Source of the DNA: a virus
Taxonomy: Duplodnaviria > Caudoviricetes
Virus record (IMG/VR): IMGVR_UViG_3300027917_004314
Strand: one strand, 5' to 3'
DNA length: 64,000 nucleotides
Each line of letters starts with the position of its first letter. The first letter of the stretch is position 1. The translations under genes were made by a program, and so were the position numbers. Under the pieces are notes generated by a model that ran no database searches, had not been told where the DNA came from, and worked only from the letters and a program-made list of their open reading frames with translations. Shown here one piece after another: positions 34,260-54,681 of the stretch.

Positions 34260-34286
34260 ATTTTTTTGAAAACGGAGATACACGAA

Positions 34287-36863
34287 ATGCCTTCAAAATA
34301 TGATCGTGAGTATGCTCGTGATATTCCACTACCAGACTGGCTAAAGGAATTTGCCGATAGCAACTTAGATAAAAGTGGCACCACCATCGAGGATATTAAA
34401 AACCTTTTCCACACGAAGAATGAACTAGACTCTGTAGAGGCTAGGGTAGAAGAACTTCGAGAAAGGGTCGGATTAGACGCCATAGAAAAAACAGCTGCAA
34501 AACAAAAAGAACTAATTCCTGGAGGGTTTGCAGAAGGCCAGCCTGATGAGAAATATGATAAAGAGCAGCTTGGTAAAGGTATAGGCGTCGAAATGGAGCA
34601 CACGCCGGATTGGGAAGTTGCAAAAGAGATAACAAAAGATCATCTAGAAGAGTCCGAAGATTTTAAAGATGGTGAGGGTGGAAAATATTACGACAAGCTC
34701 GATAAGGCAGAAGAAGAGATTAAGAAAGAAGTTGATAAAAAGAAGGCTTTGCGTATACAGCGGCTGATTACTTTGGCGGATTATTTAGACGAAGAGGGAT
34801 GTGTTAATGGTGCTAAATATATAGACACCTTAATACGTAAGCTTGCCGACATGGAGCGTCTGCCAATCATGGCTGATCCCATATTATGGTCGGACGAACA
34901 ATTATTAGAAGTTGTTAATACTCCTGGTCTTAGTGAAATGGCAGCCAAGAAGCAGGTACCACCAAGCACTGCAGAAGGAAAGGAAAAAAGTTTACTGCAA
35001 GCAGTCGTGGATGAGATTAATAAAAGAAATATTGCTCAGGGCTTAAAACCGCCGAATGTAGAAGCATGGAGAGAACGAGGATATTGGCTGCTTTATGGTC
35101 TAAATGGACAGTTATTGGGTATTTATAATAATGATAGTAAGGCTCAGATGGCCAAATCTAAATTAGCTGATATGTTTGCTGCGGGACAAAGTTTTAATAT
35201 GATAGGCGGTGAATATATGCCCTATCTTATACAGTATATCGCAGAAAAGGCTCTTAGTGCTGTTGCACCTGAAGGGGATGATGATAAGCGAGAGGCTTTT
35301 TTCTTTTCTGCGGAAGCTGCAGATATCCATGATGATGCCGCAGAGAAAGCACGTGAACTTTTAACTGATCCAGGACTCGCGCGCAAAAGAAAGGAGCATG
35401 CTGAAAAGCAAATACAAATTGTAAAAACGCCTTGGCATTTTGAGGAATATATAGACCCCAAAGCGATTCCAGAAGGTCAGATACCTACTGATGAAAATGC
35501 AGACGCTGCTTTCGAGAGTACTAAAAAGTTTAATTTGGACCCCCAAAATAATGAGCTGCCAATAGTAAGACCAAATATACATGACACTCAAAGACCAGGG
35601 AGAAAAGAGTTTGTTAAAGATTATGAACGTGAAATTGTTCAGAAATATCGCAGAAAAGAGAAGGGTCTTCCTACAAGCAAAGAGGAAAGTACGGATGATG
35701 GTTTCGAGTTGTCTTGTCGTCATGGATTTAGGCTATCCAAAAGGGCAATTAAATGGTATGCTCCAAAAGAAACAAGTCCTGTGGTTGGGCCATGGCAGAG
35801 TTATAAGTTGCCGCCAGGTGCTGGCACAACGCTTGAACCTATTTCTGAAGAAGAAATGTGGAGAAGGGAACAGGCTAAAAAGCCTCAAGTGGTAGAACCA
35901 GAGCCAAGAGAAACGAAAGAGCCTGAGGCAGAACCAGAGGAAGAGCCGGAAAGCACCATGTCATCGTGGTATTTAATGGCAGCATTTGGACAAGGACTTG
36001 GTTGGTTTAAGGAGAAACAGCATGCAGAAGATGCCAAGTGGGCGGTTGTTAACCAGTTTTCTGATCTCGATATAGATAAGTCGGGCAAAAGCGTATTGTT
36101 CAATTGTTTTAAGGATTATCTACAAAATCTGTGGAATCGCCAAATAACAAACTCCCACGTAAAAACGGAGTTAATAAATTTTGTTAACAGCACTACCAAC
36201 CAGGTATACATTGATGAAAGGGATTTAGCAGGACAAAAAGCGGTACAAATTTATGAAATTGTGGAGCACGCATTTGCACCACGTGGTGGGATATATGGAG
36301 AAGATGAACACCCAACTGGAGATTATATCGATTTAGCCGTGATTGCACTTAAAGGATTAGGCAGCCAATACGAACGAACACATCCTCTTTATCAAGTGCC
36401 AGCGGATGCTGAAGATGCTATAAGCGCAAGTGCTGAAAATGGCGAGAGAGTTATACAGGAAGTAATTAGGTGGGCTGAAAGAAGAGCCGGTCATTCTGCG
36501 ACCGCGCCATCTTATACTGATGATAATGTAATAAAAGCATTCTATTTGTCAAAACGTGCAAAAGAGAAGAGCATTTTCGAGCAATTCCCGAAGCTAGAAA
36601 CCTTTGTCCGAAATGTTTGTCGTTCTCGCGGCGGCTATGTAGAACTTCCGGCCATACAAACAATGATTAGAAATGAAAGACCAGAGAACATAGATGTACA
36701 TAATAAGGAACTAGTTGAGTTTATCAAAAAGTGTCTAAAAGAAAATAAACAAGAAGTTCAAGACGATAACACACACGATGGCGAGTTTGTATCTGAAATA
36801 AGGATGTATGATGATGATGGAAACAGAACTGTCTTTTACGAGCCACCTAGCGATATTATATAG
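34287..36863 (+). CDS. Multidomain head-module protein with a DUF5661-like module
   Basis: KGIGVEMEHT...AKEITKDHLEE...YYDKL resembles DUF5661 (from memory); helical motif; two FxLSKRA linkers. Confidence 0.6.
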   Translation: MPSKYDREYARDIPLPDWLKEFADSNLDKSGTTIEDIKNLFHTKNELDSVEARVEELRERVGLDAIEKTAAKQKELIPGGFAEGQPDEKYDKEQLGKGIGVEMEHTPDWEVAKEITKDHLEESEDFKDGEGGKYYDKLDKAEEEIKKEVDKKKALRIQRLITLADYLDEEGCVNGAKYIDTLIRKLADMERLPIMADPILWSDEQLLEVVNTPGLSEMAAKKQVPPSTAEGKEKSLLQAVVDEINKRNIAQGLKPPNVEAWRERGYWLLYGLNGQLLGIYNNDSKAQMAKSKLADMFAAGQSFNMIGGEYMPYLIQYIAEKALSAVAPEGDDDKREAFFFSAEAADIHDDAAEKARELLTDPGLARKRKEHAEKQIQIVKTPWHFEEYIDPKAIPEGQIPTDENADAAFESTKKFNLDPQNNELPIVRPNIHDTQRPGRKEFVKDYEREIVQKYRRKEKGLPTSKEESTDDGFELSCRHGFRLSKRAIKWYAPKETSPVVGPWQSYKLPPGAGTTLEPISEEEMWRREQAKKPQVVEPEPRETKEPEAEPEEEPESTMSSWYLMAAFGQGLGWFKEKQHAEDAKWAVVNQFSDLDIDKSGKSVLFNCFKDYLQNLWNRQITNSHVKTELINFVNSTTNQVYIDERDLAGQKAVQIYEIVEHAFAPRGGIYGEDEHPTGDYIDLAVIALKGLGSQYERTHPLYQVPADAEDAISASAENGERVIQEVIRWAERRAGHSATAPSYTDDNVIKAFYLSKRAKEKSIFEQFPKLETFVRNVCRSRGGYVELPAIQTMIRNERPENIDVHNKELVEFIKKCLKENKQEVQDDNTHDGEFVSEIRMYDDDGNRTVFYEPPSDII

Positions 36864-36865
36864 TC

Positions 36866-38719
36866 ATGGCATTTAAACAAAAAAGAAACGCTTTAGACGA
36901 CTGGAAACCAGAAAATAGTTTTGATTCTCTTAAGAGAGAATTTATGAAGGTCGATCCAGTTACTTTTGCAGAGACTTTCCTCACTCTTGATGGAAAGCCT
37001 TTTCGTATTACGGGCAACGGATGGAAATTCATAGCGGATATATATAGACATATCTCTGTGGTTTCAATGTCGAATGAAGGTAAGCCGGTCGTAATAGTGA
37101 AAGGCAGACAGGTCGGCGCGACAACCATGGCGTCTGCCATGGAATTGCACATGGTGGCAAGCGGAACATACGGAAGAAACGGACAACCTCCTGTTAGGGT
37201 AATGCATGCGTTTCCACAGTTGGAAATGATGCACGGCTTTGCCAAAGATAAGCTGGAAAAAATGATTTTAGAATCAATACAAATTCCAGATTTTGATGAC
37301 AAACATAGTCCAGGCAAAATGAAACCCTTCATTAATGCTCAGAAGGATTCGGCTAGAGACGCCACTGATGCACTGCGATATAAACAATTCAAGTATGGAA
37401 ATACTTTGTGGTGCGAATCAATAGGTAACGAGGGGACGAGAGTTATAGGTAGAACTTTTGACGTTTGTTTCTTCGACGAAGTCCAAGATATGAGCGAGGT
37501 GGCAATAGCCAAGACAATCAAGTGCCTTACTCGCGCTCAACACGGACCACAGCCTGGTGGGGTGCAAGTATTTTTTGGTACCCCAAGACAAAAGGGAACT
37601 TTATTCCATAGAATGTGGGAAGACTCAGATCAGCGCAGATATTATTTAAAATGTGCTGATTGCAAAAATTATTTCCTATTGTATACTCCTGGCTCTGACA
37701 AATGGGAAGAAGAAATTTGGTTATATGAAAATATAGTAAAATGTCCCAGCTGCGGCCATGAACAAGATAAAGTTATGGCGATTGAACATGGCAAATGGCT
37801 CCCTACGCCGGGCAAAGAAGATTCTAACTACATAGGTTTTCATTTTAATCAGCTATTTATTCCAGAATTTACTAAAGAAGTGATAGTAAAGGAAAAGCCT
37901 GAGCATAACACTAGAAACTCAGAAATGATTTTCAACAATGAAGTGCTCGGGGAGTTTCATTCTGGTGCCGGCCTTCCCATCACATTTGAAGAAATTTATC
38001 GGATGTGTAAAGATCAAGACCGTTCAGTACCAAAATTCATACCGAAGGGGGAAAGGCTTTCATACCTCGGTATGGACTGGGGAGGTAAACCAGACATAGA
38101 CAACGTTAAGAGAGGTCAATCTTTTTCTTGTGGCGTTGTGTTGACCGTAGACCATGACGAGAGATATCTCGTAGAATTCGGAGAAAAACTGAAACGATTG
38201 GATCGTGAAAGTAAGATGAGTTTTGTTGATGAAATGTTTCGCATATACGGCGTTAAGAACGCTATGGGCGATATTGGCTTTGCAGAAGACATTACTAACG
38301 ACCTCAAAATGAAGTATGGCGAGAAATATAAAAGTGTTAGGAGTTCCGGGATGGTTTCTGGTGGTGTAAAATATAATAGAGATGAATTAGAAATAGTGGT
38401 AGACAAAGATAAAATTATTGGAGAAGTCTTTGAATTGCTGAGGAGAGGCAGAATTAGATTTCCTTGGGCAAGTTATGAAAAAATTGCGTGGCTGATTAGA
38501 CATTGTTGCTCTATGGAAAGCAAAATCGTCACTAGACAGGGTCAGCCGCATCAGACATATATGAAGGGCAAAGAACAAAACGACGGACTTATGGCACTGA
38601 TTTACGCTTATTTGGCTTACAAATTTGATAAAACTCGTGGTTTTAAAGTAAATCCGAACGTGCCCAGCAGCACTATATTTCCAAAACCAGTTCTTGCATA
38701 TATACCAAAAAATATATAG
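36866..38719 (+). CDS. terL: Terminase large subunit (GpA-like with Zn fingers)
   Basis: KGRQVGATT, FFDEVQD, GTP, CADC/CPSC, NEVLGE, LGMDWG nuclease motif. Confidence 0.9.
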   Translation: MAFKQKRNALDDWKPENSFDSLKREFMKVDPVTFAETFLTLDGKPFRITGNGWKFIADIYRHISVVSMSNEGKPVVIVKGRQVGATTMASAMELHMVASGTYGRNGQPPVRVMHAFPQLEMMHGFAKDKLEKMILESIQIPDFDDKHSPGKMKPFINAQKDSARDATDALRYKQFKYGNTLWCESIGNEGTRVIGRTFDVCFFDEVQDMSEVAIAKTIKCLTRAQHGPQPGGVQVFFGTPRQKGTLFHRMWEDSDQRRYYLKCADCKNYFLLYTPGSDKWEEEIWLYENIVKCPSCGHEQDKVMAIEHGKWLPTPGKEDSNYIGFHFNQLFIPEFTKEVIVKEKPEHNTRNSEMIFNNEVLGEFHSGAGLPITFEEIYRMCKDQDRSVPKFIPKGERLSYLGMDWGGKPDIDNVKRGQSFSCGVVLTVDHDERYLVEFGEKLKRLDRESKMSFVDEMFRIYGVKNAMGDIGFAEDITNDLKMKYGEKYKSVRSSGMVSGGVKYNRDELEIVVDKDKIIGEVFELLRRGRIRFPWASYEKIAWLIRHCCSMESKIVTRQGQPHQTYMKGKEQNDGLMALIYAYLAYKFDKTRGFKVNPNVPSSTIFPKPVLAYIPKNI

Positions 38720-38728
38720 AGGTGACTA

Positions 38729-40750: not shown

Positions 40751-40800
40751 ATGGTAGCAATTTTGAATATTATGAGGAAAAGGGATATTAAGGGTGAAAT

Positions 40801-42853: not shown

Positions 42854-42860
42854 GGGCTAT

Positions 42861-45800
42861 ATGGCTACAGTAGAGTATAAGTGTTCGTGGTGCAAAAATC
42901 CCATATCTGTAGAGGAAGACGAGAATGCCAACACTGACATTAAAGCCAGTGGTGTGTGCAGAGAGTGTGAGCTAAAACAATTAAAGGAGACAACCATTCC
43001 CATGACTAAGAGAAAGGTTTTTAGGTTTAGGGAAAGCGGCGTAAACGAATTGGCAGAAAAACTTGAAAATCGTTTGTCGACAATGATCGCTCGCGTTAGA
43101 GAGTTGGAATCAGAAAATGTAGCAGACGATTCGCTAGCGCCAGTGGCTTTAATGCGTTTGACTGAAATTAAAGATCCAGATGAACTTTTGAAAACATATG
43201 ATAGAGATGATATTATTATAGAGGAAAAGCTAGACGGATGGAAGGTTCAGGCCATCAAAAAGGACGGCGAGGTAAAGATATATAGTCGTAGAGGAGAAGA
43301 AAAGACAGAAAACTTTCCTGATATAATAAGTGCGCTTGGCAACCTGCCTGATGGCACGCTGGTAGAAGGCGAACTTGTATATTGGCACAACGGAAAACAA
43401 GATGTAGGAAAGGTTACATCGTTGGCTGGGAGTAAACCTGAAACATCGCTAGAAAAAGCTAAAGAGTTGCCCGGCACAATAAAAATACATTTGTATGACG
43501 TTCTATGGCATAAAGGAAAGAATGTTTCCAAAGAGTCTTTTTCTAAAAGAAGACAAACCTTGCAATCATGTGTTAAAACAAGCGATAGGGCACAACTAAC
43601 GAAACAATATCCATTTTCGGATTGGCAAAAGGCAATGAACGCTGCTGTTAAGAGTGGCGGTGAAGGAATAGTATTGAAAATCAAAGAAAAGGGCTATCAG
43701 TACAAACCAAAGGGACAGCAGGAACCAAAACCTAAAAATGTTATGTATAAATACAAGGGTGGTGTTGGGAAAAGCGAATCTGATGACTACGTTGTATATG
43801 ATTATGAAATAACAGAAAAGGGGAAACTTAAAGCCTTTTTTGGCCAGTATTATGGTGGCAAACTATACCATATTAGTGAGATTAGCAACTTTTCCAAGGA
43901 AAATGAAGAGACTATTAAAAATAAATTGAAAAAGGGTAATTTTGTAATTGAAATAGGATTTCAAGAGCGGCAGCCGGGAGGGCTTAGGCACCAAAAATTT
44001 GAGAGATTTAGAGATGATAAAAAGCCAAAAGACGCAACTATGCATGAATTTCATGTTGAAAACATAGATGAATTCAAAATGGCAGAAAAGAAAGCGTCAT
44101 TTTTATTGTCAAAAAGGGCAACTTATGCAGACGAATGGCTTAAAATTCTAGAGCAAGCTGTCATGCAACTATATCCCTCCGGCCTGCCACAAATTTCTGG
44201 TGTTGATTTTCCTGCCATATATTACTTGGTATCGAGGCTTGAATCAAACGATAGGAACGATGTAATTGGTGATGCTGGTAATTCATTTGGTAGAACTCAA
44301 GTACATGGCCCATATTTTATGAGATATCTTGCACAGGATCCCAGGATCAAGCATCTCACGGGTTTGTCTTCACAAGATTTAAAACAGATGGCTGACACGT
44401 GGATGCATACTAAAAGAAATCTCAGTGGTTTGTGGCAACAGGTACCAGTTGACCAAGACACGGCCAGGGCCTATATGGCCGATAAAAAGTTGGTGATCCA
44501 TAGAAAAGAAGGCACAACAATAAGGCGAAGTCCAACCAGTGGGCCGGGCATTATTAAGTTGCGTGGCGACAAATTTGTTGGATATATAATTAATTTGGAT
44601 AAGTTAAGACACATGGGACTTACGATTACCGACGGTGTGTTAAGCAAACTTCATCAAATTTGTAACACTTTCATAACTTGGGGCGTAGCTAATAGTGCTA
44701 TAGCTAAGCTATTTATTGCTCAGAAGAATCCTGTGGCACATGCAAAATTCCATAGGTCTTTTAACAGTAGAAATATAGGCAGAGACCCAGTTTTGCAATC
44801 CGTTATAGATAGTATTTCGCAAAAAGATTTTGCAAACAAGGTTAAGATAGTGACGTCTGATGTAGCCCGTTATGGATATGATACTACAGCGCCAGGAGCA
44901 TTTAATATATATCAGCTTATTTTTATAGCAAACGCTAGTGGTGCGGGTAGGGTAAGAGACTTTTTGCGCAATAGAAGGGCATTTGCTGCCGGTAACCTCC
45001 ATTACATCCAGAGTAGCAGATTTAAACGAGCCATGAGGTGGATTCAAAGAGACCCGAAAATGCCCGCCAATGTACAATACATTGCGCGACTCTTATTGAC
45101 TGATTTACCTCCGCAGGGTGGTATGGCCGGATTTGTTTCGCGAAAGTTCTCAAATATAGATTTTCCTCTAAGCAAAAAGGTCTATGCCAGCGAAGCAGAG
45201 GAAGAGTTTGAAAAAGAAGAAACCACTGATCCGGCAAAGCCATGGTTTATAATAGAACTAGAGGATGAATTTTTTACAAAGTTGCGCCAGCTAATAGGCG
45301 AAGATGCCACGGTGCTAATTATAGTAAGAAAAAAATTATCTGAACGTGTTGGCAAAGAATTAGAGGAATATGAGCTTATCCCGCTTTATAGGCAAGACAT
45401 TATAAAATACATTACGGAAAATGTAGAAGATATTAAGTCTAAATTGTTGAATCCAGATTACAATCCGTTTGTCGAATATCTGTTAAGAAATTGGGATATT
45501 AAGCTTATAGCTCCTAAGTCTGTCGCAATGCCTACGGAACTAGGGCCAACCGATAGAGACGATGAATTTTTTGAAGAAGAGACCAAACCAGAAGCAGTCC
45601 CGTGGCGGCCAAAATTGGGGAACCAATTGATTTCAAAGAGGGCTGATTATGTAAAACCGGGCACTTTATATTTCCCTGGACAATACGCTGATGCAATTAG
45701 ATCTGGCAAACGCAGGATGACCATAAGGCCAAATGATGTGCCTGTCCAAATTGACGAGGTAATAAGATGTATTACTTACTCTGGTGGAGTTATTTGTGAC

Positions 45801-48800
45801 GTCAAAATAGTTGCCAAAAATGTAATGAGTATTAATCGCATAGGTAAAGCTTATGGCAGTCGTATGGCTAAATCATTGGCACAAAAATTTGGTCCTAAGA
45901 AAAGATTTATAGTTATTAAGTTTGAGCCTGTAGATAACCTTAATGCTGCAGATGACGATGACGACAATAATGAAGAGAAAATGTCTGAAGTACTAATAGA
46001 CAAGGATAAAAAACTTACAAGAGGCCAAATTAAAACGCACTATTCGAAACCAGCGATTCGTAAAAAAATAATGTCGCGCATCAAAGACAACCCTGTGATA
46101 GTATATATCGGTACTGGTACCAACGAAAAGATCTTGAAACGCAATCATGATGGTAAGGAAATTATAATAACAAATGATGACCCGCAAAAAGACGAAGACT
46201 CTAACAATTATTTCTATTGGGTTAAAAGGAGAGTGTTGTCGTTTCACCAAGTGTTTGGCACTAAAACCAATTTGGGCTTCGTTGATTTAGACATACATGG
46301 AGACTTTCCTCTATCTAAAGCTAAAAAATATGCGAACGAAATCAGCAAGGCCATTAAAAATAAGTATAATGTGGGTACTACCATTTTTCAAAGCGGTGGT
46401 AGTGGTTTACATGTAGAGTTTAAACTCAGCAGCGAAATGTCTATAGACAAGCTTCGCGGCGAGCTTAAGAAAATGTTGGATGCCATTAACGAAGATTGGG
46501 GTGATGTGACAACTGGTGTTGTAAAAGGTAGTGGGATGAGATCTGATGTGTCTACCCTACATAATAAGGGTAGCATTAGAGTGCCGGGTTCTTTTGGTGA
46601 AAGTCACGGAAACGTGAAAAAATCAGTAGGTTCTGAACAAGATACTGCTGAGAACAATTATAACAATGGCGGCTTCGGACAATTATATACGCAAGAAATA
46701 ACCGAGCCGTTTCCAGATCCGCTAAAAGAGGTAGCCCCAATGCAGGGTGAGGGGCCAGTTGATAGTTATATAGGATATAACACCGTAGAGGACGGAAAAT
46801 TTGCCTCAGCTAAGAAAAAAGTACTTATGTTGGTGGCACCAAAAGAATTCTATGAGCCTGAGTATTTTATCCCTCGCAGAATTTTTGCGGAAAAATATGG
46901 TTTTGATGTGTCAGTAGTTTCTAGTGGCCATAGCGCTGTTGGTGCTCAAGGAACTGAAATTGCAGTAGTTCCAATATCTGAAATAGATGTGGCCGACTTT
47001 GATTCTTTCTTTGTGGTTGGCGGCAAAGGGATGGTGGAGTTTTCCAAAGACAAAGATGCACAAAAATTGCTGAAAACTTTTGTTCGTAAGAAAAAACCTG
47101 TAGCCATGATTTGCCATGGTCCACTTCTTGCTGTTGAAACTGGTATTATAAAGGGCAGACAAGTTACTGGGTGGCCAGATATTGTGGGCAAAGTACGCAG
47201 AGCTAAGGGTACCTGGACTGGGATGCCGGTAGAAAGAGACGGGCTGCTGTTTACTGCAATTGGCCCAGAAGACGCAGAAAACTTATCTATAGTCTTATCA
47301 GAATTTCTCAAAGGAGAAAAAACACTCGTTCCTGTGAAAGAGAAATTTCTTGATTGGAAAGAGGCCTCGCAGGTAATAAATAGTATTTGGAAATTTGCTG
47401 CTGGCCTAAGTGACGAAGAAGAGCTGGCCAGATTGATGAGAGAACAGCAAGAGGAAATAGAAGAAGAGGAAGAAGGGGAAGAAGAGAAAGAGGTCATGAT
47501 TCCTGAGGATAAGGAAGCGCTCATAGAAATGCAGCATCGAGAGGAGTTGCTCAGGAGACAACAGCAAATAGAAAGATCACGCGCTGAAAGGGAACGTCGT
47601 GAAGAACAGGAAATGGAAAGGCGTCGAGAATTGCCCGAAGAATATGAGGAAGAGGAACCCGAGCTAGAAAAACCCAGAGCAGTAAAGTTTAAGGATATCG
47701 TACAAATTGAGAAAGAAGAGGAAGAACCGCTGGCCGAAGAAGAGGGCCTGGAACCATCGGAAGAATTTAGCCGAATGTTATCCTCTGTAAAAGAAGAATT
47801 GTCTAGTATACTAGAAGATATTGGGGATTTTGGTGAAGACCCCAATATGGCAGAACCAGAAGAAGATGAAGAAGAAGATTACGAGTCAACAATGGAGAAG
47901 GCGCCAGAAACTATTTTTGGAATTAAACTAAAAAGTCCAACCGACAAATCTGGCCAAGTACTTGACCGATGGTTTGAGAAAAACGAAATTGTCATGCCAG
48001 AAATGTCCGAGGGGGCCAGGAAGCTATTTACAATAAAAAACATGAAAGATGGTGCTTCTTTAACGAAACTGTTTAGCGATCCTTTGGCATGGGATATCCT
48101 GCACGAAGAACCCCACCTGTTGCAAAATTGGATTTTGCCAGCTCTGATCGTGGGTATAGGACAAAGATGGTTCAACAACAATGGTAGTAGACCACAACTT
48201 GGTACTAAAAAATTTAAAAATGTTGGTAGAACGCCTTTTGGCATGTTTGATGAAGATGACCTAGCCCTTCTCAAAAAAGGTGCAACAATAGAGGAGCTGC
48301 CCAGTGCCAGGAAGTATATACGCATGATAAATCAGTTGGTGACCAAATATGCTAACTATTATTTCTCGTATGGGTATAGGAGAAGTAAAAGAAATCCACA
48401 AGGTGCTTTACCTATAGGTGGTTATATATATAAGGCCTTAGGAAGGGCTATGACTAAAGAAATTGCTGAAGTTAAAGGTTTCAAGGAAATAAGGTTTCCT
48501 GTTTGTGCTGTGTGTAAGGCAAAACAAAAGAACGAGAAAATGATTCTTCGAAGCATGGTTAAAGTCGCTGACAAACCAGCCAGATGGGAGTGTGAGACTT
48601 GCAAAAGAGAGCATGAAGCAAATAGTTTCTTAATTGATGAATTAGAACAAAGACTTAGGACAATAGAAGACAGTGCCGGTGGGCTAAAAACTAGAATAGA
48701 ACAAGATAAGGTTGCTGTAAAAGATTTGGAAGACGAAGAGGCAATCGAACGACTTACCAATAAAATTGAAGATCGGACCCAAAGGTTAACCTCGTTTATT

Positions 48801-51017
48801 ATAGAGTCTGATTCAATCAAGAAAAAACGTGACGAGTTAAATAATACGCAGAAAATATTAAGCGGACAATTAGCAGTTCCATATTGGCATACTTGGTGCC
48901 CGAACACAACTTGTCCCGGCCGCAAAGTGCCTCTCACTTCAATAAATTGGGACGCAGATGTGTGGAAAAGTGATGCCGAGGGTGCTTTAGCGGCTAGGTT
49001 ATATGAAAGATATGGTATTAAAAGACCTGGCATGATGGAGGCCGTTGATGAGCCAACTGCGAAGCCAATAAAAAGAAAAATCTCTTCGCAGCACATTCCG
49101 CCAGAATGGCTACTAGATGTAGAGTTTATATGTCCACATGATGGTATTAAATTTACGCTAAGGGATAGTAAATATAAGGGGCACAGAAATCTAGGCGGGT
49201 TTTTGTGGGAGCCATATCGAAGGTTGGAGTGGGCTACTATGCATGAAGCTGCCCCCAAAGAAGTAGAAGTGGCGATTGCTATGGCCGGCGCCGAAGAGAA
49301 AATGGATGCTGAGTTGTCAAAAGTACTTTTCACACATTTGTCCTTAATTGGCAGAACAGTTTTCTCGCGTGAAAAAAGGAAAAAAGATCAACAATTTGTA
49401 GAGTGGTTAACAGGTCAGCTCAAGTTACATAAGTACAACCTGGAAAAAGTTAAGCAAATTCCTATCTATAGCTCCAAGCAGAGAGAGAAAGTGTTGTATG
49501 ATATAATAAAAGATTCTTCTAATCTAGATCCTTTGTCTTTCGTGGCTTGGCTTACGGAGACTGCCATAGCTGGCAAGTTTGTTCAAGATAGAGAGAAAGA
49601 TATTGGCCAGGAAAACTTTGTACTAAAGACAACGAGAAATCAGCGTAGAGACGAGATATATATACCTATTTTACAAAATTGGGTTGACAAAATGCTTTCT
49701 GAAGAAAACGGATTTGAGAATTATAGAATAGAGGACATGTTAACCAACCATCTTGAAGATGGACTCTACGGTGATGGACCAGGAACTTTCTTTGTTGCAA
49801 AGATTGAAGATGGTGTGTTGCCACATAGGGCAACCAAGAAGCACGAAGGAGTGTTTGGCTTTAGATGCAATCTTATGCTTTCTGTGAAGTTTCCTGCAAA
49901 ACCAAAATATAGTGTGCCAATACATAAAGGCATTGAGGGATTTGAAGAAGAATATTTAGATGAGTTAGAACAAAAAGAAAGAATACGAGCAAGTAGGACT
50001 GCAGAGTCAGGTTTGTATCCTCGTATGCTGAGAGTTATTGGCGTGTGGCAGCTGTCACCAGGACAAGTTGAATCTGTTCTTAAACAAGCCAATGGCGAGG
50101 CGATGCTGAAAGGCGAAGCATGCATAGCGAAGGGTCCAGGTGGTACCGGCCTGCATACGTTTGCTTTAAACAACCAAGATAAAAATATAGTCGGCGATAT
50201 GGTTGGGCACGATTTTTATGTTGCTACACTAGATAAAGACGAGACATCTTTGTCTGTAGGAGATTATGTTCTGGTACAAGCTTTACTTATGCCAGGAGAT
50301 TACTGGTGGGCGCCAATTGCTATGGTCCAAAATCTAAGAAAAGAGAGCGACACAGCTAGAAATATCTTTGGTAGACTTGGTGCTCTAATATCTGACGAAG
50401 TGTCACCAGAAGAAGATAGAAGACTGCTGCAAGAATTTGTGCAGGATGTTAAGGAATATGGTGATGACCCGAAAGAAATGGAAATGATCGTTGGAGATTT
50501 AATTGATAGGTTTGAGGCAGCAAGAAAAAAGAAAAGGTCGTCGTTTATTCTTAGCGTTAGAGAAGCAAAAGATCCTCTATCAAAATATAAACAAAAACGA
50601 GAGTTTGATGAGACTCCTGAACCCGAAGGCGAAGTCTCTAAAGAGAATAAACATCGATTTGTGATTCAAAGACACGTAGCTGAAAAAGTTGGTGAACATT
50701 GGGATCTACGACTAGAAAACAATGAAGGTGCCTTATCGTCTTGGTCTATACCAAAACATAAGTTTCCTAAAGATAAAGAGAAACTGTTGGCCGTCAAAAC
50801 GGAAGACCATCCAATATCTTATATGAAATTTAAAGGAGAGATTCCGGAGGGCTACGGTGCTGGTAAAGTAGAAATTCATGATAGCGGCACATTTGAGGAA
50901 GTAGAATGGAACGACTCGAAAATAGTTTTTAAGCTTAAAGGAGAAAAAGAGAAAGGGACATATAAGTTATTTAGAACCGATGGGAAAAATTGGATGATCA
51001 TGGAACATTACGGATAG
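42861..51017 (+). CDS. 2718-aa polyprotein: Zn finger, ATP-dependent DNA ligase, lysozyme/SLT-like domain, ASCH, AEP (LigD-Pol-like) polymerase, DJ-1/PfpI, paralog of ORF 8281, LigD 3'-phosphoesterase
   Basis: EEKLDG/VEGELV/YDVL/EGIVLK/RFRDDK; ESND..GDAGNSFGRTQV; IRSGKRRMTIR; FVDLD/SGGSGLHV/IRVPGS; FYEPE/AMICHGP; REFDETPEP/FVIQRH..HWDLRLE/EDHPISY. Confidence 0.88.
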   Translation: MATVEYKCSWCKNPISVEEDENANTDIKASGVCRECELKQLKETTIPMTKRKVFRFRESGVNELAEKLENRLSTMIARVRELESENVADDSLAPVALMRLTEIKDPDELLKTYDRDDIIIEEKLDGWKVQAIKKDGEVKIYSRRGEEKTENFPDIISALGNLPDGTLVEGELVYWHNGKQDVGKVTSLAGSKPETSLEKAKELPGTIKIHLYDVLWHKGKNVSKESFSKRRQTLQSCVKTSDRAQLTKQYPFSDWQKAMNAAVKSGGEGIVLKIKEKGYQYKPKGQQEPKPKNVMYKYKGGVGKSESDDYVVYDYEITEKGKLKAFFGQYYGGKLYHISEISNFSKENEETIKNKLKKGNFVIEIGFQERQPGGLRHQKFERFRDDKKPKDATMHEFHVENIDEFKMAEKKASFLLSKRATYADEWLKILEQAVMQLYPSGLPQISGVDFPAIYYLVSRLESNDRNDVIGDAGNSFGRTQVHGPYFMRYLAQDPRIKHLTGLSSQDLKQMADTWMHTKRNLSGLWQQVPVDQDTARAYMADKKLVIHRKEGTTIRRSPTSGPGIIKLRGDKFVGYIINLDKLRHMGLTITDGVLSKLHQICNTFITWGVANSAIAKLFIAQKNPVAHAKFHRSFNSRNIGRDPVLQSVIDSISQKDFANKVKIVTSDVARYGYDTTAPGAFNIYQLIFIANASGAGRVRDFLRNRRAFAAGNLHYIQSSRFKRAMRWIQRDPKMPANVQYIARLLLTDLPPQGGMAGFVSRKFSNIDFPLSKKVYASEAEEEFEKEETTDPAKPWFIIELEDEFFTKLRQLIGEDATVLIIVRKKLSERVGKELEEYELIPLYRQDIIKYITENVEDIKSKLLNPDYNPFVEYLLRNWDIKLIAPKSVAMPTELGPTDRDDEFFEEETKPEAVPWRPKLGNQLISKRADYVKPGTLYFPGQYADAIRSGKRRMTIRPNDVPVQIDEVIRCITYSGGVICDVKIVAKNVMSINRIGKAYGSRMAKSLAQKFGPKKRFIVIKFEPVDNLNAADDDDDNNEEKMSEVLIDKDKKLTRGQIKTHYSKPAIRKKIMSRIKDNPVIVYIGTGTNEKILKRNHDGKEIIITNDDPQKDEDSNNYFYWVKRRVLSFHQVFGTKTNLGFVDLDIHGDFPLSKAKKYANEISKAIKNKYNVGTTIFQSGGSGLHVEFKLSSEMSIDKLRGELKKMLDAINEDWGDVTTGVVKGSGMRSDVSTLHNKGSIRVPGSFGESHGNVKKSVGSEQDTAENNYNNGGFGQLYTQEITEPFPDPLKEVAPMQGEGPVDSYIGYNTVEDGKFASAKKKVLMLVAPKEFYEPEYFIPRRIFAEKYGFDVSVVSSGHSAVGAQGTEIAVVPISEIDVADFDSFFVVGGKGMVEFSKDKDAQKLLKTFVRKKKPVAMICHGPLLAVETGIIKGRQVTGWPDIVGKVRRAKGTWTGMPVERDGLLFTAIGPEDAENLSIVLSEFLKGEKTLVPVKEKFLDWKEASQVINSIWKFAAGLSDEEELARLMREQQEEIEEEEEGEEEKEVMIPEDKEALIEMQHREELLRRQQQIERSRAERERREEQEMERRRELPEEYEEEEPELEKPRAVKFKDIVQIEKEEEEPLAEEEGLEPSEEFSRMLSSVKEELSSILEDIGDFGEDPNMAEPEEDEEEDYESTMEKAPETIFGIKLKSPTDKSGQVLDRWFEKNEIVMPEMSEGARKLFTIKNMKDGASLTKLFSDPLAWDILHEEPHLLQNWILPALIVGIGQRWFNNNGSRPQLGTKKFKNVGRTPFGMFDEDDLALLKKGATIEELPSARKYIRMINQLVTKYANYYFSYGYRRSKRNPQGALPIGGYIYKALGRAMTKEIAEVKGFKEIRFPVCAVCKAKQKNEKMILRSMVKVADKPARWECETCKREHEANSFLIDELEQRLRTIEDSAGGLKTRIEQDKVAVKDLEDEEAIERLTNKIEDRTQRLTSFIIESDSIKKKRDELNNTQKILSGQLAVPYWHTWCPNTTCPGRKVPLTSINWDADVWKSDAEGALAARLYERYGIKRPGMMEAVDEPTAKPIKRKISSQHIPPEWLLDVEFICPHDGIKFTLRDSKYKGHRNLGGFLWEPYRRLEWATMHEAAPKEVEVAIAMAGAEEKMDAELSKVLFTHLSLIGRTVFSREKRKKDQQFVEWLTGQLKLHKYNLEKVKQIPIYSSKQREKVLYDIIKDSSNLDPLSFVAWLTETAIAGKFVQDREKDIGQENFVLKTTRNQRRDEIYIPILQNWVDKMLSEENGFENYRIEDMLTNHLEDGLYGDGPGTFFVAKIEDGVLPHRATKKHEGVFGFRCNLMLSVKFPAKPKYSVPIHKGIEGFEEEYLDELEQKERIRASRTAESGLYPRMLRVIGVWQLSPGQVESVLKQANGEAMLKGEACIAKGPGGTGLHTFALNNQDKNIVGDMVGHDFYVATLDKDETSLSVGDYVLVQALLMPGDYWWAPIAMVQNLRKESDTARNIFGRLGALISDEVSPEEDRRLLQEFVQDVKEYGDDPKEMEMIVGDLIDRFEAARKKKRSSFILSVREAKDPLSKYKQKREFDETPEPEGEVSKENKHRFVIQRHVAEKVGEHWDLRLENNEGALSSWSIPKHKFPKDKEKLLAVKTEDHPISYMKFKGEIPEGYGAGKVEIHDSGTFEEVEWNDSKIVFKLKGEKEKGTYKLFRTDGKNWMIMEHYG

Positions 51018-51099
51018 CGGATGAATAGAAAAATCCAGGTCTTCCTACTAATAAAGAAATATCAAATTGCATACTTAGCGATATTGGAGACTTCGAATT

Positions 51100-51399: not shown

Positions 51400-51410
51400 C
51401 GGGAGCAAAT

Positions 51411-52064: not shown

Positions 52065-52328
52065 ATGGTAATTAACAAACTCTCCGATAAGGCAAAAGTG
52101 GCGCTGCTTGGAAAACTAGATGCCATTATAGAAAATGATCCTCAAATCGAGGCCGATGATTCTATGGTTCTGTTGGCAGAGTTGGCGGATAGATTAGACG
52201 CCGAAGGTTTTTGTGAAGCAGCTAACGAGATAGATGCACTTATCGAACAAAAGAATAAAAAACTTAAAAGACCTGGGCGAATGAAAGCTAAAGAAATAAG
52301 ACAAAAATTCGCCAAGAATAAAAAGTAA
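52065..52328 (+). CDS. Small protein consisting largely of the helical motif
   Basis: LAELADRLDAEGFCEAANEIDALIE. Confidence 0.7.
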   Translation: MVINKLSDKAKVALLGKLDAIIENDPQIEADDSMVLLAELADRLDAEGFCEAANEIDALIEQKNKKLKRPGRMKAKEIRQKFAKNKK

Positions 52329-52685
52329 ATGGGAAACAATTTTAGGTTATCCAACAGAATAGAAAAAACAGTGCAGACGCCAGCTCAGCGTACAGCTGAG
52401 TCATTGTTCAAAATTATTCAATTTATGTTTTATAGAGTGCCCGATAAGAATAAAGCGAAATTTCTGTCAAGAGTTAGAGGAAAAATAGTTAAATTAAATC
52501 CGGGTGCTTTGGGAACAAAACCGTTGCCGCCAACAGCAGCAATAGGTCAGGCAATCGGGCTGGCTAAAAATCTATTATATGGCCTTAACCCTAATTTTAT
52601 TCAAGAAGTTTTATCGGAGTTGGTAAAACTGTTATCTACAACTCCGCAACCAATAAAGCCTCTACCGCCGAGTGCTGGGGCATAA
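52329..52685 (+). CDS. Hypothetical protein
   Basis: Abutting ORF. Confidence 0.6.
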   Translation: MGNNFRLSNRIEKTVQTPAQRTAESLFKIIQFMFYRVPDKNKAKFLSRVRGKIVKLNPGALGTKPLPPTAAIGQAIGLAKNLLYGLNPNFIQEVLSELVKLLSTTPQPIKPLPPSAGA

Positions 52686-52689
52686 ATAT

Positions 52690-54681
52690 ATGTTTTATAT
52701 CAGTAAAAGAGCTGCCTGGATGCGAAGCATATGGATTAATCCAGACGATGGTTCCACGATACAAGTAGATGGCAAGACCCATGACGATGTGTTTTTTGAA
52801 CATATCGATCAGTTTGGAGATGCTGTACCTGAAGACATCAAAGAAATAATTAAGAGAAGGGAAGAAAAACCAGAGCACTCAGAAAAAGCTTACGAGATTT
52901 TGGATGGTCTAAAAGAGAGTTGGCCCAGAATTACAATATTTGGCAGTGAAGTTGGCCTAGACATGCCAGATAAATCTAATCTATTGTTGCACTTTGCACA
53001 ACAAACACTTATGAAAAGTGGGCTTAGATATGGATCCATGACAATCAACTTTGGTGTCGGCGGCTTTATCGAAGATGTTTCGTATGATGATTTTATACGA
53101 GCTGACAGGTGGTCTGATATTTTAAAGCCATATAGGTCGTTTATCACTGCGTTTGCATTGTCAAAGCGTGCCCAGGAACCGATAATTCCTACTCCGCATA
53201 TTGTGATCGAACCATACGAGCCTGCAATCGCAAAGGCACTTACTAGAATACCAAACCATTTAAAAATGAACGTCACAAAAGTAGTAGTTCACAGTGGTGG
53301 CGGTTCTGGTCATATGGGGCATGTCGAAATGGGCCCTGGGAAAGATCCAAGAGAGATACATATCTTTAAAGATAGGATCCGAGAAAAGGTGCGTCAAATG
53401 TTCGGTACTATACAACCTACAGCACAGCAGCTAGAACAAGCAACAGAACGCGCCTTGATTGAAACCATCATACACGAAACGGGACATATAGGACCGACAA
53501 GAACCCAAGAACAGATTTTACAAGGTCCGTTCTTTGGAGAACCAGAGGCCGAAGCACTCGTCAGACAGCAGCTGCCGACAATTGCATCGTTTGAAGATGC
53601 ATTGGTGAAGGCATCCCTTGATTTGGAAGAGATTAGAGAGAAGCTATTACCAAATGCTCCTATTGGAGAGCCTAACTTGCACTTTGTGGCTCAATCCATG
53701 AACCAAAAAAAATATTATCTTGTCAAGAGTGGAGTCCGTCTACTCACAGGTGGCGATATAAAACCCGCCGCAATCGAAATTAAAGAGGCAGAACAATTTA
53801 ATAATATCGCTTCTCGAAACATCAAAGTTTCTAAAATTATTGGAGTTATTGCGGCAGAAGTAGGAGTTCATCCATATAACGATTTGAATTTTGTGGTTGC
53901 TTTGGCAAAATGGCAAGATTGCAACGGTTTAGAGCCTACTGGCAAATTAGATGCTGGTACTTTATCCAAGCTTGGTAAAAATCATAGTCACTTAGAGACC
54001 CCTAAAAATTTTGGTGTTGTGGTTCCTCAACACCTGTATCGTGGCGCAATAATTGAGAATATGAAACAACTAGAAGCGTTGCGTGATAGGTTTGGTGTAC
54101 AAAGGGTTGTTTCCCTGCACAACCACCCTGATATAACTAGGATGTGTCACATCGCTGGTTTAGAACATGTTGTAGCACCTTTAGAAACAGGATCGCCAAG
54201 TGACTTTGGTAGAAAAATTCTTGGAAAATCCATTTCTAGCTTTTTAAAAGAAAAACCAACATATATTCATTGTTTTTATGGTCAAGACCGCACAGGAGGC
54301 GTTGTAGCGCGCTTCAGGACGGAAACTGGATGGCCATGTGAAGCAGCCTATGCAGAAGCAAAAGCTTATGGTTTTAAAGACATGTTTGCCGATCTTATCG
54401 ATTGGTTTTCTGAGCCATGCGGCAAGCCACCAGTTGATACCGATAAGATAAGGAAATTATTGAAGAATAAATCTCCTTATAAGAATCCAGAAACTTCACA
54501 ACCTCTAGAACAGTCGTTATTGGAACCCCACCTAAATCCAGTTCCTAATGATATGCCATTTGGCAATCCATATCAAGATGCTAGTGAACATGTCTATGTT
54601 ACGTGGGCTGATACTATTAACAGCGTGGCGCCAACAGGGATTTTAAGCATTCCTGTGCCATCAGGGAGTACGGGCATATGA
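52690..54681 (+). CDS. Multidomain protein: zincin-like HExxH domain, peptidoglycan-binding domain, protein tyrosine/dual-specificity phosphatase
   Basis: IIHETGH; WQDCNGLEPTGKLDAGTLSKL; NFGVV..HLYRGA and IHCFYGQDRTG P-loop. Confidence 0.8.
   Translation: MFYISKRAAWMRSIWINPDDGSTIQVDGKTHDDVFFEHIDQFGDAVPEDIKEIIKRREEKPEHSEKAYEILDGLKESWPRITIFGSEVGLDMPDKSNLLLHFAQQTLMKSGLRYGSMTINFGVGGFIEDVSYDDFIRADRWSDILKPYRSFITAFALSKRAQEPIIPTPHIVIEPYEPAIAKALTRIPNHLKMNVTKVVVHSGGGSGHMGHVEMGPGKDPREIHIFKDRIREKVRQMFGTIQPTAQQLEQATERALIETIIHETGHIGPTRTQEQILQGPFFGEPEAEALVRQQLPTIASFEDALVKASLDLEEIREKLLPNAPIGEPNLHFVAQSMNQKKYYLVKSGVRLLTGGDIKPAAIEIKEAEQFNNIASRNIKVSKIIGVIAAEVGVHPYNDLNFVVALAKWQDCNGLEPTGKLDAGTLSKLGKNHSHLETPKNFGVVVPQHLYRGAIIENMKQLEALRDRFGVQRVVSLHNHPDITRMCHIAGLEHVVAPLETGSPSDFGRKILGKSISSFLKEKPTYIHCFYGQDRTGGVVARFRTETGWPCEAAYAEAKAYGFKDMFADLIDWFSEPCGKPPVDTDKIRKLLKNKSPYKNPETSQPLEQSLLEPHLNPVPNDMPFGNPYQDASEHVYVTWADTINSVAPTGILSIPVPSGSTGI

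What the first reader, a model, noticed from the sequence alone, without database searches (positions are those of the whole stretch)
35727..53172. Recurrent F-x-[LI]-S-K-R-A motif at domain boundaries of three multidomain proteins: candidate maturation cleavage signal
Seen in sequence: FRLSKRA (35727), FYLSKRA (36540), FLLSKRA (44100, right after the ligase), FPLSKKV (45162), QLISKRA (45624, right before ASCH), FILSVREA (50544, right before PE), FYISKRA (52693, at the N-terminus) and FALSKRA (53152, before the HExxH domain). All are in head-module proteins, mostly in inter-domain linkers; none was noticed in the replication module. Established: T4 gp21 and phiKZ gp175 cleave many internal head proteins at short sequence motifs. 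Inference: the protease at 55802 cuts these polyproteins into separate enzymes inside the prohead.
Basis: partly seen in the sequence, partly recalled or inferred. Interest (0 to 1): 0.82.

Follow-up and report, generated by a model that had tools for sequence, protein, structure and literature searches.

The report
Cargo tag motif in megaphage head proteins
A seven-residue signal (Phe-x-Leu/Ile-Ser-Lys-Arg-Ala) starts almost every enzyme module of the proteins that a roughly 400-460 kb uncultured phage apparently packs into its head; it is most likely an address-and-cut tag, but no cutting has been shown.

Summary
All eight listed sites are in frame at the stated coordinates. F-x-[LI]-S-K-R-A occurs 5 times in the 161-kb record against 0.005 expected, and only in three head-module proteins. 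Its codons differ between copies, so selection acts on the protein.

The motif is conserved across relatives with 30-56% G+C. It lies at homology breakpoints between unrelated modules: ligase, ASCH, LigD-PE, zincin-PTPase, TopoIB and 2H. It also lies at the extreme N-terminus of stand-alone modules (MFYLSKRA, MLSKRA) and of a single-domain 118-aa protein. AlphaFold puts it in a low-confidence linker.

Residues 1-265 of the 1385-aa protein have an assemblin/T4-gp21 fold and are fused to a scaffold. That scaffold carries a related conserved L-S-R-A site, but MCP and portal have no motif. A zincin module directly downstream of one motif is a second candidate.

Cleavage itself could not be tested, and a complex prediction gave no verdict.

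Best reading (about 0.5): a portable cargo tag, recognised and cut by the head protease. Polyproteins would have arisen by fusion of tagged genes. This is a new variant of the T4/phiKZ and polyvalent-protein theme. First-stage notes of this scan report the same LSKRA motif on other genomes.

The parts
35727..35747 (+). Motif copy FRLSKRA (aa 488-494 of the 865-aa protein), preceded in tandem by FELSCR at 35703-35720
   Evidence: PSSM score 24.0. It lies at the end of the inserted module aa 190-483, which is homologous to the C-terminal module of the G002 1772-aa protein.
36540..36560 (+). Motif copy FYLSKRA (aa 759-765 of the 865-aa protein), directly before the conserved C-terminal module (aa 758-862)
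   Evidence: PSSM score 28.5. The homologous junction carries FHISKRA in L016 and FKLSKRA in L008.
34266..36863 (+). 865-aa carrier protein upstream of the large terminase. It has a conserved N-module and C-module with two inserted modules between them.
42861..51017 (+). 2718-aa polyvalent cargo protein. Domains: ATP-dependent DNA ligase (aa 103-286), ASCH (937-1024), a weak LigD PrimPol match (1119-1215), DJ-1/PfpI (1319-1476, with ICHGP intact) and LigD phosphoesterase (2603-2705).
44100..44120 (+). Motif copy FLLSKRA (aa 414-420) after the ligase module
   Evidence: PSSM score 26.5. The same junction has F[KQ]LSKRA or FKISKRA in G001, L002, L010 and L013.
45162..45182 (+). Variant copy FPLSKKV (aa 768-774) at a homology breakpoint (aa 758)
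   Evidence: The aligned position is canonical in L002, L010 and L003 and decayed in G001, L013 and G002.
45624..45644 (+). Motif copy QLISKRA (aa 922-928), directly before the ASCH module and at a homology breakpoint (aa 923)
   Evidence: PSSM score 21.6. L003 has MLSKRA here and other relatives have L[VQ]K[CW]A.
50544..50567 (+). Decayed copy FILSVREA (aa 2562-2569) before the LigD-PE module
   Evidence: The G001 homologue has a canonical FKLSKRA at aa 2562.
52341..52361 (+). N-terminal variant FRLSNRI (aa 5-11) of the single-domain 118-aa protein (52329-52685)
   Evidence: M-x-x-F-x-L-S-x-R is kept in 12 of 14 full-length homologues.
52690..52713 (+). N-terminal copy MFYISKRA at the probable true start of the zincin-PTPase cargo protein
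   Evidence: PSSM score 27.8
53152..53172 (+). Motif copy FALSKRA, 11 residues before the zincin (HExxH) module
   Evidence: These are model residues 19-25, with pLDDT 50-60 overall and under 50 at K-R-A.
52690..54681 (+). Cargo protein: N-module of unknown function, then a minimal zincin module (HETGH at 53473-53487), then a DSP/PTP-like phosphatase
   Evidence: 3e11 zincin, Z 9.3
55802..56596 (+). Head-maturation protease domain (aa 1-265) with an assemblin/T4-gp21 fold. Invariant His147 is at 56240 and Ser198 at 56393. An invariant Cys cluster is inserted.
56597..59959 (+). Scaffold part of the 1385-aa protease-scaffold fusion. It contains two tandem repeats, each ending in a conserved K-K-x-L-[SL]-R-A (LSRA at 57398-57409, LLRA at 57830-57841).

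Best explanation
F-x-[LI]-S-K-R-A (core [LI]-S-x-R) is a portable short linear tag. It marks the N-terminal edge of each enzyme module that this megaphage loads into its head.

Inferred mechanism: the tag lies in a flexible linker and is recognised by the assemblin/gp21-type maturation protease, which is fused to the scaffold and therefore sits inside the prohead. Recognition would help recruit the cargo. Cleavage within the tag would then free the modules from each other and from their short leaders before or during DNA packaging. The scissile bond is unknown. The two candidates are R|A, which would unify the cargo tag with the scaffold's L-S-R-A, and [LI]|S, by analogy with the hydrophobic-x-P1|Ser rule of assemblins, gp21 and gp245.

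Polyproteins such as the 2718-aa ligase/ASCH/PrimPol/DJ-1/PE protein would have arisen by fusion of genes that each carried the N-terminal tag. That explains why the tag sits at exactly the module junctions, and why some internal copies are decaying.

Shown: the motif, its restriction to cargo proteins, its conservation, its junction and N-terminal placement, its linker context, and the protease fold. Inferred: binding, cleavage, the enzyme responsible and the bond cut.
For: 1. Enrichment and exclusivity.
- G000: 5 observed against 0.005 expected, all in three head-module proteins.
- G001 (301 kb, 30% GC): 5 canonical copies, all in two head-module proteins.
- G002 (340 kb, 56% GC): six hits of a variant P-x0-1-[LI]-S-[KR]-R-[AS], five in the head module and one about 7 kb upstream of the terminase gene.

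2. Protein-level selection: synonymous codon families differ between copies.

3. Junction placement.
- BLAST homology breakpoints coincide with the sites at G000 aa 758/771 and 923/925. L004 aa 349 leads straight into the ASCH module.
- w34266 aa 190-483 equals a module of G002 that begins at its motif. w52672 aa 165-668 equals a G002 protein that starts MIPLSKRA.

4. In most of the 31 homologues of the zincin-PTPase protein the motif precedes the zincin module by about 100-110 aa from HExxH. It also separates TopoIB, 2H, ParB-like and other modules.

5. N-terminal copies occur in stand-alone proteins (MFYLSKRA, MFHISKRS, MIKLSKRD, MLSKRA) and in a single-domain 118-aa family. This parallels the 10-residue capsid-targeting sequence of the T4 internal proteins, which is established knowledge.

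6. AlphaFold2 places the motif in a low-pLDDT linker, outside the fold.

7. Protease: PHROG head maturation protease hit at E 1e-9. The top fold hits are T4 gp21 5jbl (prob 0.97) and PRV/EBV/HSV assemblins. His147 and Ser198 are invariant in 43 sequences. It is fused to a scaffold in most listed homologues of a family with 202 representative clusters at E 1e-30 or better.

8. The scaffolds carry conserved related sites. L-[SL]-R-A occurs 108 times against 6.2 in shuffles. In more distant clades [LI]-x-K-R-A occurs 51 times against 6.5, at a fixed position.

9. Precedent: gp245 of SPN3US cuts at A-X-E with Ser preferred at P1' (PMC10052503). Polyvalent phage proteins are predicted to be processed by embedded or assemblin-like peptidases (PMC5512222).
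Against: - No direct evidence of cleavage exists. There are no proteomic data and no cultured member of the clade.
- The exact motif is absent from MCP, portal and the protease-scaffold. Portal N-termini do not score above background with the cargo PSSM.
- The scaffold's L-S-R-A is one residue shorter than the cargo tag, so the link rests on resemblance only.
- Clades with a protease 48-58% identical (L058, L061) have [LI]-x-K-R-A in the scaffold but no LSKRA on their small separate cargo genes.
- Characterised gp21/gp175/gp245-type proteases cut after Glu, not next to basic residues.
- The conserved N-terminal copies show that separating domains is not the only role, and could mean the motif is purely a docking element.
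- Several junctions have lost the motif without losing the fusion (P0011, 12, 14; G000 aa 190 of the 865-aa protein), so cutting at each junction is not essential.
- The complex prediction gave no verdict.
Confidence: 0.5

Rival explanations
1. The motif is a cleavage site, but the enzyme is the cargo-borne minimal zincin (HExxH) module. It would act in cis or in trans, inside the head or after ejection into the host, as proposed in general for the MPTase domains of polyvalent proteins.
For: - A zincin module follows the motif directly in most of the 31 homologues, about 100-110 aa before HExxH.
- The fold is supported: 3e11 zincin at Z 9.3, rmsd 2.5 over 91 residues; YbeY 8.9; Wss1 7.2; almost all rows are zincins. 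H126, E127 and H130 are invariant.
- Zincins commonly prefer a hydrophobic P1' residue, which would fit F-x|[LI] (established knowledge).
- The zincin is present in all three whole records that carry the motif. None was detected in the partial locus L058, which lacks the motif.
- PMC5512222 predicts exactly this role.
Against: - AlphaFold2 does not dock the adjacent motif into the cleft. It leaves it disordered.
- Some zincin modules have no motif upstream (P0011, 12, 14, 21, 25).
- The motif also tags proteins with no zincin, so the action would have to be in trans.
- The co-occurrence argument rests on very few genomes, and those without the motif also lack polyproteins.
- YbeY-like minimal zincins are not all peptidases.
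Confidence: 0.15
2. The motif is a docking or capsid-targeting element only. It would bind the scaffold, the inner capsid surface, the protease or the DNA. It is not cut, and the giant proteins stay intact in the virion.
For: - The motif is conserved at the extreme N-terminus of stand-alone and single-domain proteins, where no separation is needed.
- The basic S-K-R core could mimic the basic capsid-binding elements of scaffolds. The scaffold has a similar conserved L-S-R-A.
- MCP and portal lack it.
- N4 vRNAP-type polyvalent proteins are packaged uncut (PMC5512222).
Against: - One copy per protein would suffice for targeting, yet up to 4-5 copies sit precisely at the junctions between unrelated enzymes.
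- Tandem duplicated copies occur.
- A 7-residue footprint in a disordered linker fits a protease site equally well.
- T4 targeting sequences are both docking signals and cleavage sites, so docking does not exclude cutting.
Confidence: 0.2
3. The motif is a post-translational modification site or another regulatory site, for example phosphorylation of the invariant Ser next to basic residues, with the packaged PTP-like phosphatase as its eraser. Alternatively it creates an N-degron or a recognition signal for a host protease that limits the lifetime of the ejected enzymes.
For: - Ser and Arg are invariant.
- A DSP/PTP-like phosphatase is always encoded in the same module.
- Cleavage before Leu or Phe would expose a bacterial N-end-rule residue (established knowledge).
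Against: - No kinase or modifying enzyme was identified.
- No ClpP and no Prp is present in the records.
- Junction placement is not explained by a modification site.
Confidence: 0.1
4. The repeat is a DNA- or RNA-level element (promoter, recombination site, cassette junction), or simply chance.
For: The sites coincide with the breakpoints of module shuffling.
Against: - Mean nucleotide identity over the core is 64%, and different codon families are used.
- The peptide is conserved between genomes of 30%, 40% and 56% GC.
- All copies are in one reading frame within long ORFs.
- 0 of 2000 shuffles reach even two copies.
Confidence: 0.01

Closest known systems
T4 prohead protease gp21 with its [LI]-x-E rule and the capsid-targeting sequence of internal proteins IPI-III and Alt
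   Same: An assemblin-fold protease is encoded in the head module (5jbl is the best fold match). A short shared signal sits at the N-terminus of packaged non-structural proteins. Only a handful of residues would be removed.
   Different: The motif is basic (S-K-R-A) with no Glu. It is also internal, at the junctions of multi-enzyme polyproteins. It is not found in MCP or portal. The protease is fused to a roughly 1100-residue scaffold. Cleavage is unproven.
phiKZ gp175 and SPN3US gp245 (S/A/G-x-E and A-X-E) processing of ejection and inner-body proteins
   Same: A giant phage in which many head-internal proteins are marked by one short motif. N-terminal propeptides are the rule. Ser is preferred at P1' (PMC10052503), which would fit an [LI]|S cut.
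   Different: The sequence rule is different. In SPN3US and phiKZ the MCP, the portal and the protease itself carry the motif and are cut. Here only the cargo carries it. There is no sequence similarity beyond the fold.
Polyvalent proteins of phages and conjugative elements (Iyer, Burroughs, Anand, de Souza, Aravind 2017, PMC5512222)
   Same: Multi-domain proteins in a virion module that combine nucleic-acid enzymes (ligase, PrimPol, TopoIB, 2H, ParB-like), a phosphatase and a zincin-like MPTase. Processing by embedded zincin or assemblin-like peptidases is predicted.
   Different: None of the passages of that paper retrieved for 'cleavage' or 'processing' defines a cleavage or junction motif. 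Here an explicit conserved 7-residue junction and N-terminal signal is defined. The assemblin-like peptidase is on a separate scaffold fusion, not at the C-terminus of the polyvalent protein.
Bacillus (Lysinibacillus) phage G, the nearest cultured relative
   Same: gp19 is 35% identical to the protease domain (E 6e-27). The head-module gene order is similar. Several small head-module proteins start with a shared basic motif: LSRIKKI, LTRLKKI, SRLKKV, LKRLIKK, ISRLKKT.
   Different: The motif is different (x-R-L-K-K-x). The protease is not fused to the scaffold. No giant polyproteins lie between portal and protease. No processing motif is reported in the two phage G papers I could read.
Firmicute L27/Prp cleavage signal used by Staphylococcus phage 80alpha (..LNLQFF|ASKKG)
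   Same: A superficial resemblance: F-F-A-S-K-K-G against F-x-L-S-K-R-A, recalled from memory.
   Different: No Prp (PF04327) is present in the record. The conserved upstream LNLQ is absent. The SKK of L27 is conserved for ribosomal reasons. I rejected this as a family assignment.

Membership tests
Prohead-protease cleavage-motif systems (T4 gp21 / phiKZ gp175 / SPN3US gp245 type) | An assemblin/gp21-fold Ser-His protease is encoded in the head module | tested here: met
   PHROG 18299 at E 1e-9. Foldseek top hits are 5jbl (prob 0.97) and herpesvirus proteases, though E is only about 1e-2. H147 and S198 are invariant in 43 homologues.
Prohead-protease cleavage-motif systems (T4 gp21 / phiKZ gp175 / SPN3US gp245 type) | One short motif recurs in several head proteins far above chance | tested here: met
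   5 observed against 0.005 expected. The motif is confined to head-module proteins in three whole records.
Prohead-protease cleavage-motif systems (T4 gp21 / phiKZ gp175 / SPN3US gp245 type) | The same motif is present in core substrates (MCP, scaffold, portal, the protease itself) | tested here: not met
   There is no LSKRA in MCP, portal or the protease-scaffold. Only a related L-[SL]-R-A is conserved in the scaffolds.
Prohead-protease cleavage-motif systems (T4 gp21 / phiKZ gp175 / SPN3US gp245 type) | Cleavage occurs C-terminal to Glu at P1 | tested here: not met
   No Glu is conserved in or near the motif.
Prohead-protease cleavage-motif systems (T4 gp21 / phiKZ gp175 / SPN3US gp245 type) | Cleavage is observed at the motif in virions | not testable with these tools
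   No cultured member and no proteomic data. The complex prediction gave no verdict.
Polyvalent proteins (PMC5512222) | A single polypeptide combines two or more unrelated effector or enzymatic domains and is encoded by a phage next to virion genes | tested here: met
   Ligase + ASCH + PrimPol (weak) + DJ-1/PfpI + LigD-PE in the 2718-aa protein. Zincin + PTPase in the 663-aa protein. Both lie between portal and protease.
Polyvalent proteins (PMC5512222) | A zincin-like MPTase is present as a hub domain | tested here: met
   Invariant HExxH. VIA Z 9.3 to the 3e11 zincin-like metalloprotease, and the match list is dominated by zincins. There is no Pfam hit.
Polyvalent proteins (PMC5512222) | The protein is packaged in the virion and delivered to the host | not testable with these tools
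   Inferred from gene position only.
T4-type capsid targeting sequence | A short shared sequence at the extreme N-terminus of non-structural head proteins | tested here: met
   MFY[LI]SKRA, MLSKRA, MIPLSKRA and M-x-x-F-x-L-S-x-R are found in many homologues.
T4-type capsid targeting sequence | Necessary and sufficient for packaging of a passenger protein | not testable with these tools
   Needs reporter fusions in a cultivable system.
L27/Prp-type processing (phage 80alpha) | A Prp cysteine protease (PF04327) is available, and an LNLQFF|A signal is present | tested here: not met
   PF04327 is absent from the record. The upstream signal is absent.

The most novel reading that the evidence does not exclude
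The seven residues form a self-contained, transferable load-and-release code. Any protein that begins with F-x-L-S-K-R-A would be captured by the scaffold-tethered protease domain during prohead assembly and freed by cleavage. Megaphages of this clade could then recruit new enzymes into the virion simply by placing or fusing genes behind the tag. This would explain the rapid shuffling of ligase, TopoIB, 2H, ParB, ASCH, PE and phosphatase modules between relatives. It would also be a basic-residue specificity not previously described for an assemblin-fold protease.
Probability: 0.3. Interest if true: 0.8.

Novelty: new variant of a known kind. Interest (0 to 1): 0.62.

Why it matters
Megaphages of 400-500 kb are almost all uncultured, and what they carry into the cell is unknown. 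This tag offers a sequence-only way to list the packaged cargo of a large clade. The protease-scaffold family has at least 202 representative clusters (50% identity) at E 1e-30 or better. The cargo here is a complete end-joining and repair kit (ligase, PrimPol, phosphoesterase) together with TopoIB, 2H and phosphatase modules.

The tag turns the general prediction that polyvalent proteins are processed into a precise hypothesis that can be tested with a recombinant protease and a reporter peptide. If confirmed, it would define a new specificity for assemblin-fold proteases. It would also provide a compact tag for loading foreign proteins into large capsids.

Tried and rejected
- Complex prediction of the protease domain (aa 36-270, 43-row alignment) with a 35-residue peptide around FALSKRA scored 0.20, below the 0.32 mark. 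That is no verdict, and it is not evidence either way.
- Prp/L27 idea: PF04327 is absent. Rejected.
- ClpP as an alternative head protease, as in phage G virions: PF00574 is absent from G000, G001 and G002.
- Solved-structure sequence search with the 1385-aa protein: no hit.
- Pfam on the zincin module, the protease domain and the N-modules: nothing significant.
- Portal N-termini (M-x-x-[KR]-R-G and T-P-[KR]-R-A-A) looked motif-like by eye. They do not score above the background of other N-termini with the cargo PSSM, so I do not use them as evidence.
- A profile search with the zincin alignment found only members of the same clade. Zincin and motif therefore could not be separated phylogenetically.
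- More distant protease-scaffold clades (L058, L059, L061) carry no LSKRA on their cargo, so the tag is specific to a clade.
- The phage G capsid paper (J Mol Biol 2020) could not be read. The two accessible phage G papers report no processing motif.
- The DJ-1/PfpI domain (ICHGP intact) was considered as a third possible peptidase. Nothing links it to the motif.

Full report
**Context.** The window is bases 32001-96000 of a 161,010-bp IMG/VR virus record. Nearly all genes are on the + strand. CheckV-type completeness is 40%. The window's own zincin-PTPase protein also occurs on a 460,921-bp contig. Relatives of 301 and 340 kb are rated 75% and 84% complete. The element is therefore a megaphage of roughly 400-460 kb.

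The head module reads as follows:
- 865-aa protein, 34266-36863
- large terminase, 36866-38719
- portal, 38729-40750
- 598-aa protein
- 2718-aa multi-enzyme protein, 42861-51017
- several small proteins
- zincin-PTPase protein, 52690-54681
- 1385-aa protease-scaffold, 55802-59959
- MCP, outside the window at genome 100368-101399

**Observation.** F.[LI]SKRA occurs 5 times in 52,345 residues of ORFs against 0.0049 expected. No shuffle out of 2000 gave two copies. I built a position matrix from 26 non-redundant sites. It gives six hits at 21.6 or more, all in three head-module proteins. The best score elsewhere in the genome is about 9. The copies use different codon families for Ser, Arg and Ala, and are only 64% identical at the DNA level. 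This is a peptide signal, not a DNA repeat.

Two further copies turned up:
- FELSCR, in tandem with FRLSKRA.
- FRLSNRI, at the N-terminus of the 118-aa protein.

The weak copies FPLSKKV and FILSVREA align with canonical copies in relatives.

**Conservation.** Sixteen related loci have portals 47-76% identical. I fetched two whole related records.
- G001 (30% GC) has five canonical copies. All are in the homologues of the giant protein and of the zincin-PTPase protein, and there are none in the other roughly 97,000 residues.
- G002 (56% GC) has six hits of a variant with Pro instead of Phe (P-[LI]-S-[KR]-R-[AS]). Five are in the head module and one lies about 7 kb upstream of the terminase gene. 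Four sit within the first ten residues of their proteins.
- Thirty-one homologues of the zincin-PTPase protein from metagenomes carry the motif about 100-110 residues before HExxH. It also lies between every additional module: TopoIB, 2H phosphoesterase, a ParB-like module and others.

First-stage notes of this scan report the same LSKRA punctuation in polyproteins of other genomes. I did not check those records. They agree with the TopoIB/2H/LSKRA proteins I saw (P0011-P0014).

**Anatomy.** Three features define the element.

1. It sits at homology breakpoints.
   - In comparisons of the giant proteins, alignments stop at G000 residue 758 and resume at 915-923, next to the sites at 771 and 925.
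   - In L004 the motif at residue 349 leads directly into the ASCH module.
   - Residues 190-483 of the 865-aa protein are a module that, in G002, forms the C-terminus of another protein and begins at its motif.
   - Residues 165-668 of the zincin-PTPase protein equal a G002 protein that starts MIPLSKRA.

2. Stand-alone modules carry it at the extreme N-terminus. Examples are MFYLSKRA, MFHISKRS, MIKLSKRD and even MLSKRA. A single-domain 118-aa family keeps M-x-x-F-x-L-S-x-R in 12 of 14 full-length members. The signal is therefore not only a separator of domains.

3. It is outside the folds.
   - In an AlphaFold2 model of the zincin module (mean pLDDT 89) the motif residues have pLDDT 50-60, and under 50 at K-R-A. 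They are not docked in the cleft.
   - Some homologues lack the motif in front of the same fold.
   - Internal copies are gained and lost between relatives.

**Candidate enzymes.**
- *Prohead protease.* The N-terminal 265 residues of the 1385-aa protein hit the PHROG "head maturation protease". An AlphaFold2 model (pLDDT 79) finds T4 gp21 and the herpesvirus assemblins as its best matches. Probabilities are high but E-values are weak. His147 and Ser198 are invariant. The rest of the protein is a charged, repetitive scaffold. An exhaustive search found 1578 homologues, most of those listed being fusions of 1100-1500 residues. The closest cultured one is phage G gp19.
- *Zincin module.* The module downstream of FALSKRA is a minimal zincin (Z 9.3 to 3e11, with a list dominated by zincins; invariant HExxH).
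- *DJ-1/PfpI domain.* It has an intact Cys-His elbow and is a remote third candidate.

**Which reading?** Several facts fit a processing signal of the kind known from T4 and phiKZ/SPN3US and predicted for polyvalent proteins:
- junction placement between unrelated enzymes;
- the 7-residue footprint in a linker;
- tandem copies;
- the precedent itself.

The N-terminal copies fit a T4-like targeting sequence that is also cut. They suggest how the polyproteins arose, namely by fusion of genes that each began with the tag.

In favour of the prohead protease, its own scaffold has conserved look-alike sites: L-[SL]-R-A (108 against 6.2 expected) and, in more distant clades, [LI]-x-K-R-A at a fixed position (51 against 6.5).

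Several points count against it:
- The exact motif is missing from MCP, portal and protease-scaffold.
- Portal N-termini do not score above background.
- Distant clades have the scaffold site but no tagged cargo.
- Known proteases of this fold cut after Glu.

The complex prediction was uninformative. I therefore put about 0.5 on tag-and-cut by the prohead protease, 0.15 on the zincin, 0.2 on docking without cleavage, and about 0.1 on other roles.

**Scissile bond.** This is unknown.
- R|A would unify L-S-K-R-A with the scaffold's L-S-R-A.
- [LI]|S would match the hydrophobic-x-P1|Ser pattern of assemblins, gp21 and gp245.

Both are inferences.

**Novelty.** The concept is known (T4 CTS and gp21, phiKZ and SPN3US, polyvalent proteins). 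The following are new details:
- this basic motif;
- its use at both N-termini and junctions;
- its restriction to cargo;
- its clade-wide conservation in phage-G-related megaphages.

I class it as a new variant of a known kind. No paper I could search describes it. The phage G capsid paper could not be read.

Noticed in passing
window 34770-34845, 41100-41180, 52065-52328, 54678-54953: A second recurrent element. A helical hairpin of the type L-A-D-x-L-D-x-x-G-x-x-x-x-A-x-x-I-D-x-L-I appears in the 865-aa protein (aa 170-193), at the N-terminus of the 598-aa protein and in two small proteins of 87 and 91 aa. It gives a weak DUF5661 hit (E 7e-4). It may be a docking module of head proteins.
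   Followed up: no
L007 1000-4152, L008 3007-6036, L010 6098-10384, L011 8138-12346, L014 8372-12628: Portal genes of several relatives are 1009-1428 aa against 673 aa here, so they carry large insertions, possibly inteins. Several protease-scaffold homologues also have an insertion of about 360 aa inside the protease domain (two-stretch matches, e.g. P0042, P0062, P0080). One relative's terminase carries Intein_splicing and LAGLIDADG Pfam hits.
   Followed up: no
window 57000-57900 (aa 400-700 of the 1385-aa protein): The scaffold contains two tandem repeats of about 140 aa (A-Y-x-Q-G-G-G ... D-K-Q-M-E-G ... G-L-H-P-G-Y ... K-K-x-L-[SL]-R-A). This unit is conserved across the listed members of the protease-scaffold family.
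   Followed up: partly
window 56420-56470 (aa 208-222 of the protease domain): An invariant Cys cluster (C208, C211, C222) is inserted directly after the catalytic Ser motif of the protease. This suggests a zinc ribbon, which to my recollection T4 gp21 and the assemblins lack.
   Followed up: no
window 42861-43120: The giant protein starts with a C-x2-C ... C-x2-C zinc-ribbon leader of about 85 aa in G000, G001 and L013. Relatives without it (L003, G002) start with the tag instead (MFELSIRMA, MAWPSLSRRA).
   Followed up: partly
L057 (Bacillus phage G, JN638751.1) 4754-18253: Small head-module proteins of phage G share an N-terminal basic motif x-R-L-K-K-x: gp5 LSRIKKI, gp9 LTRLKKI, gp10 SRLKKV, gp17 LKRLIKK, gp20 ISRLKKT. 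This may be an analogous tag in the only cultured megaphage.
   Followed up: partly
window 46815-47288: The DJ-1/PfpI domain inside the giant cargo protein keeps the nucleophile elbow ICHGP, so it is probably catalytically competent as a peptidase, deglycase or glyoxalase.
   Followed up: no
G000:C1:1-4278 (outside the window, minus strand): The record starts with a 1425-aa open frame on the minus strand that runs off the contig end, in a genome whose genes are otherwise almost all on the plus strand. IMG/VR labels the record 'provirus'.
   Followed up: no
window 46300-46330 (aa 1149-1157 of the giant protein): F-P-L-S-K-A-K-K lies inside the weak PrimPol match. Relatives have F-A-L-S-K-R-[HY] at the aligned place (L002 and L010, aa 1285). 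It is either a decayed tag inside what is really a junction, or a look-alike internal to the domain.
   Followed up: no
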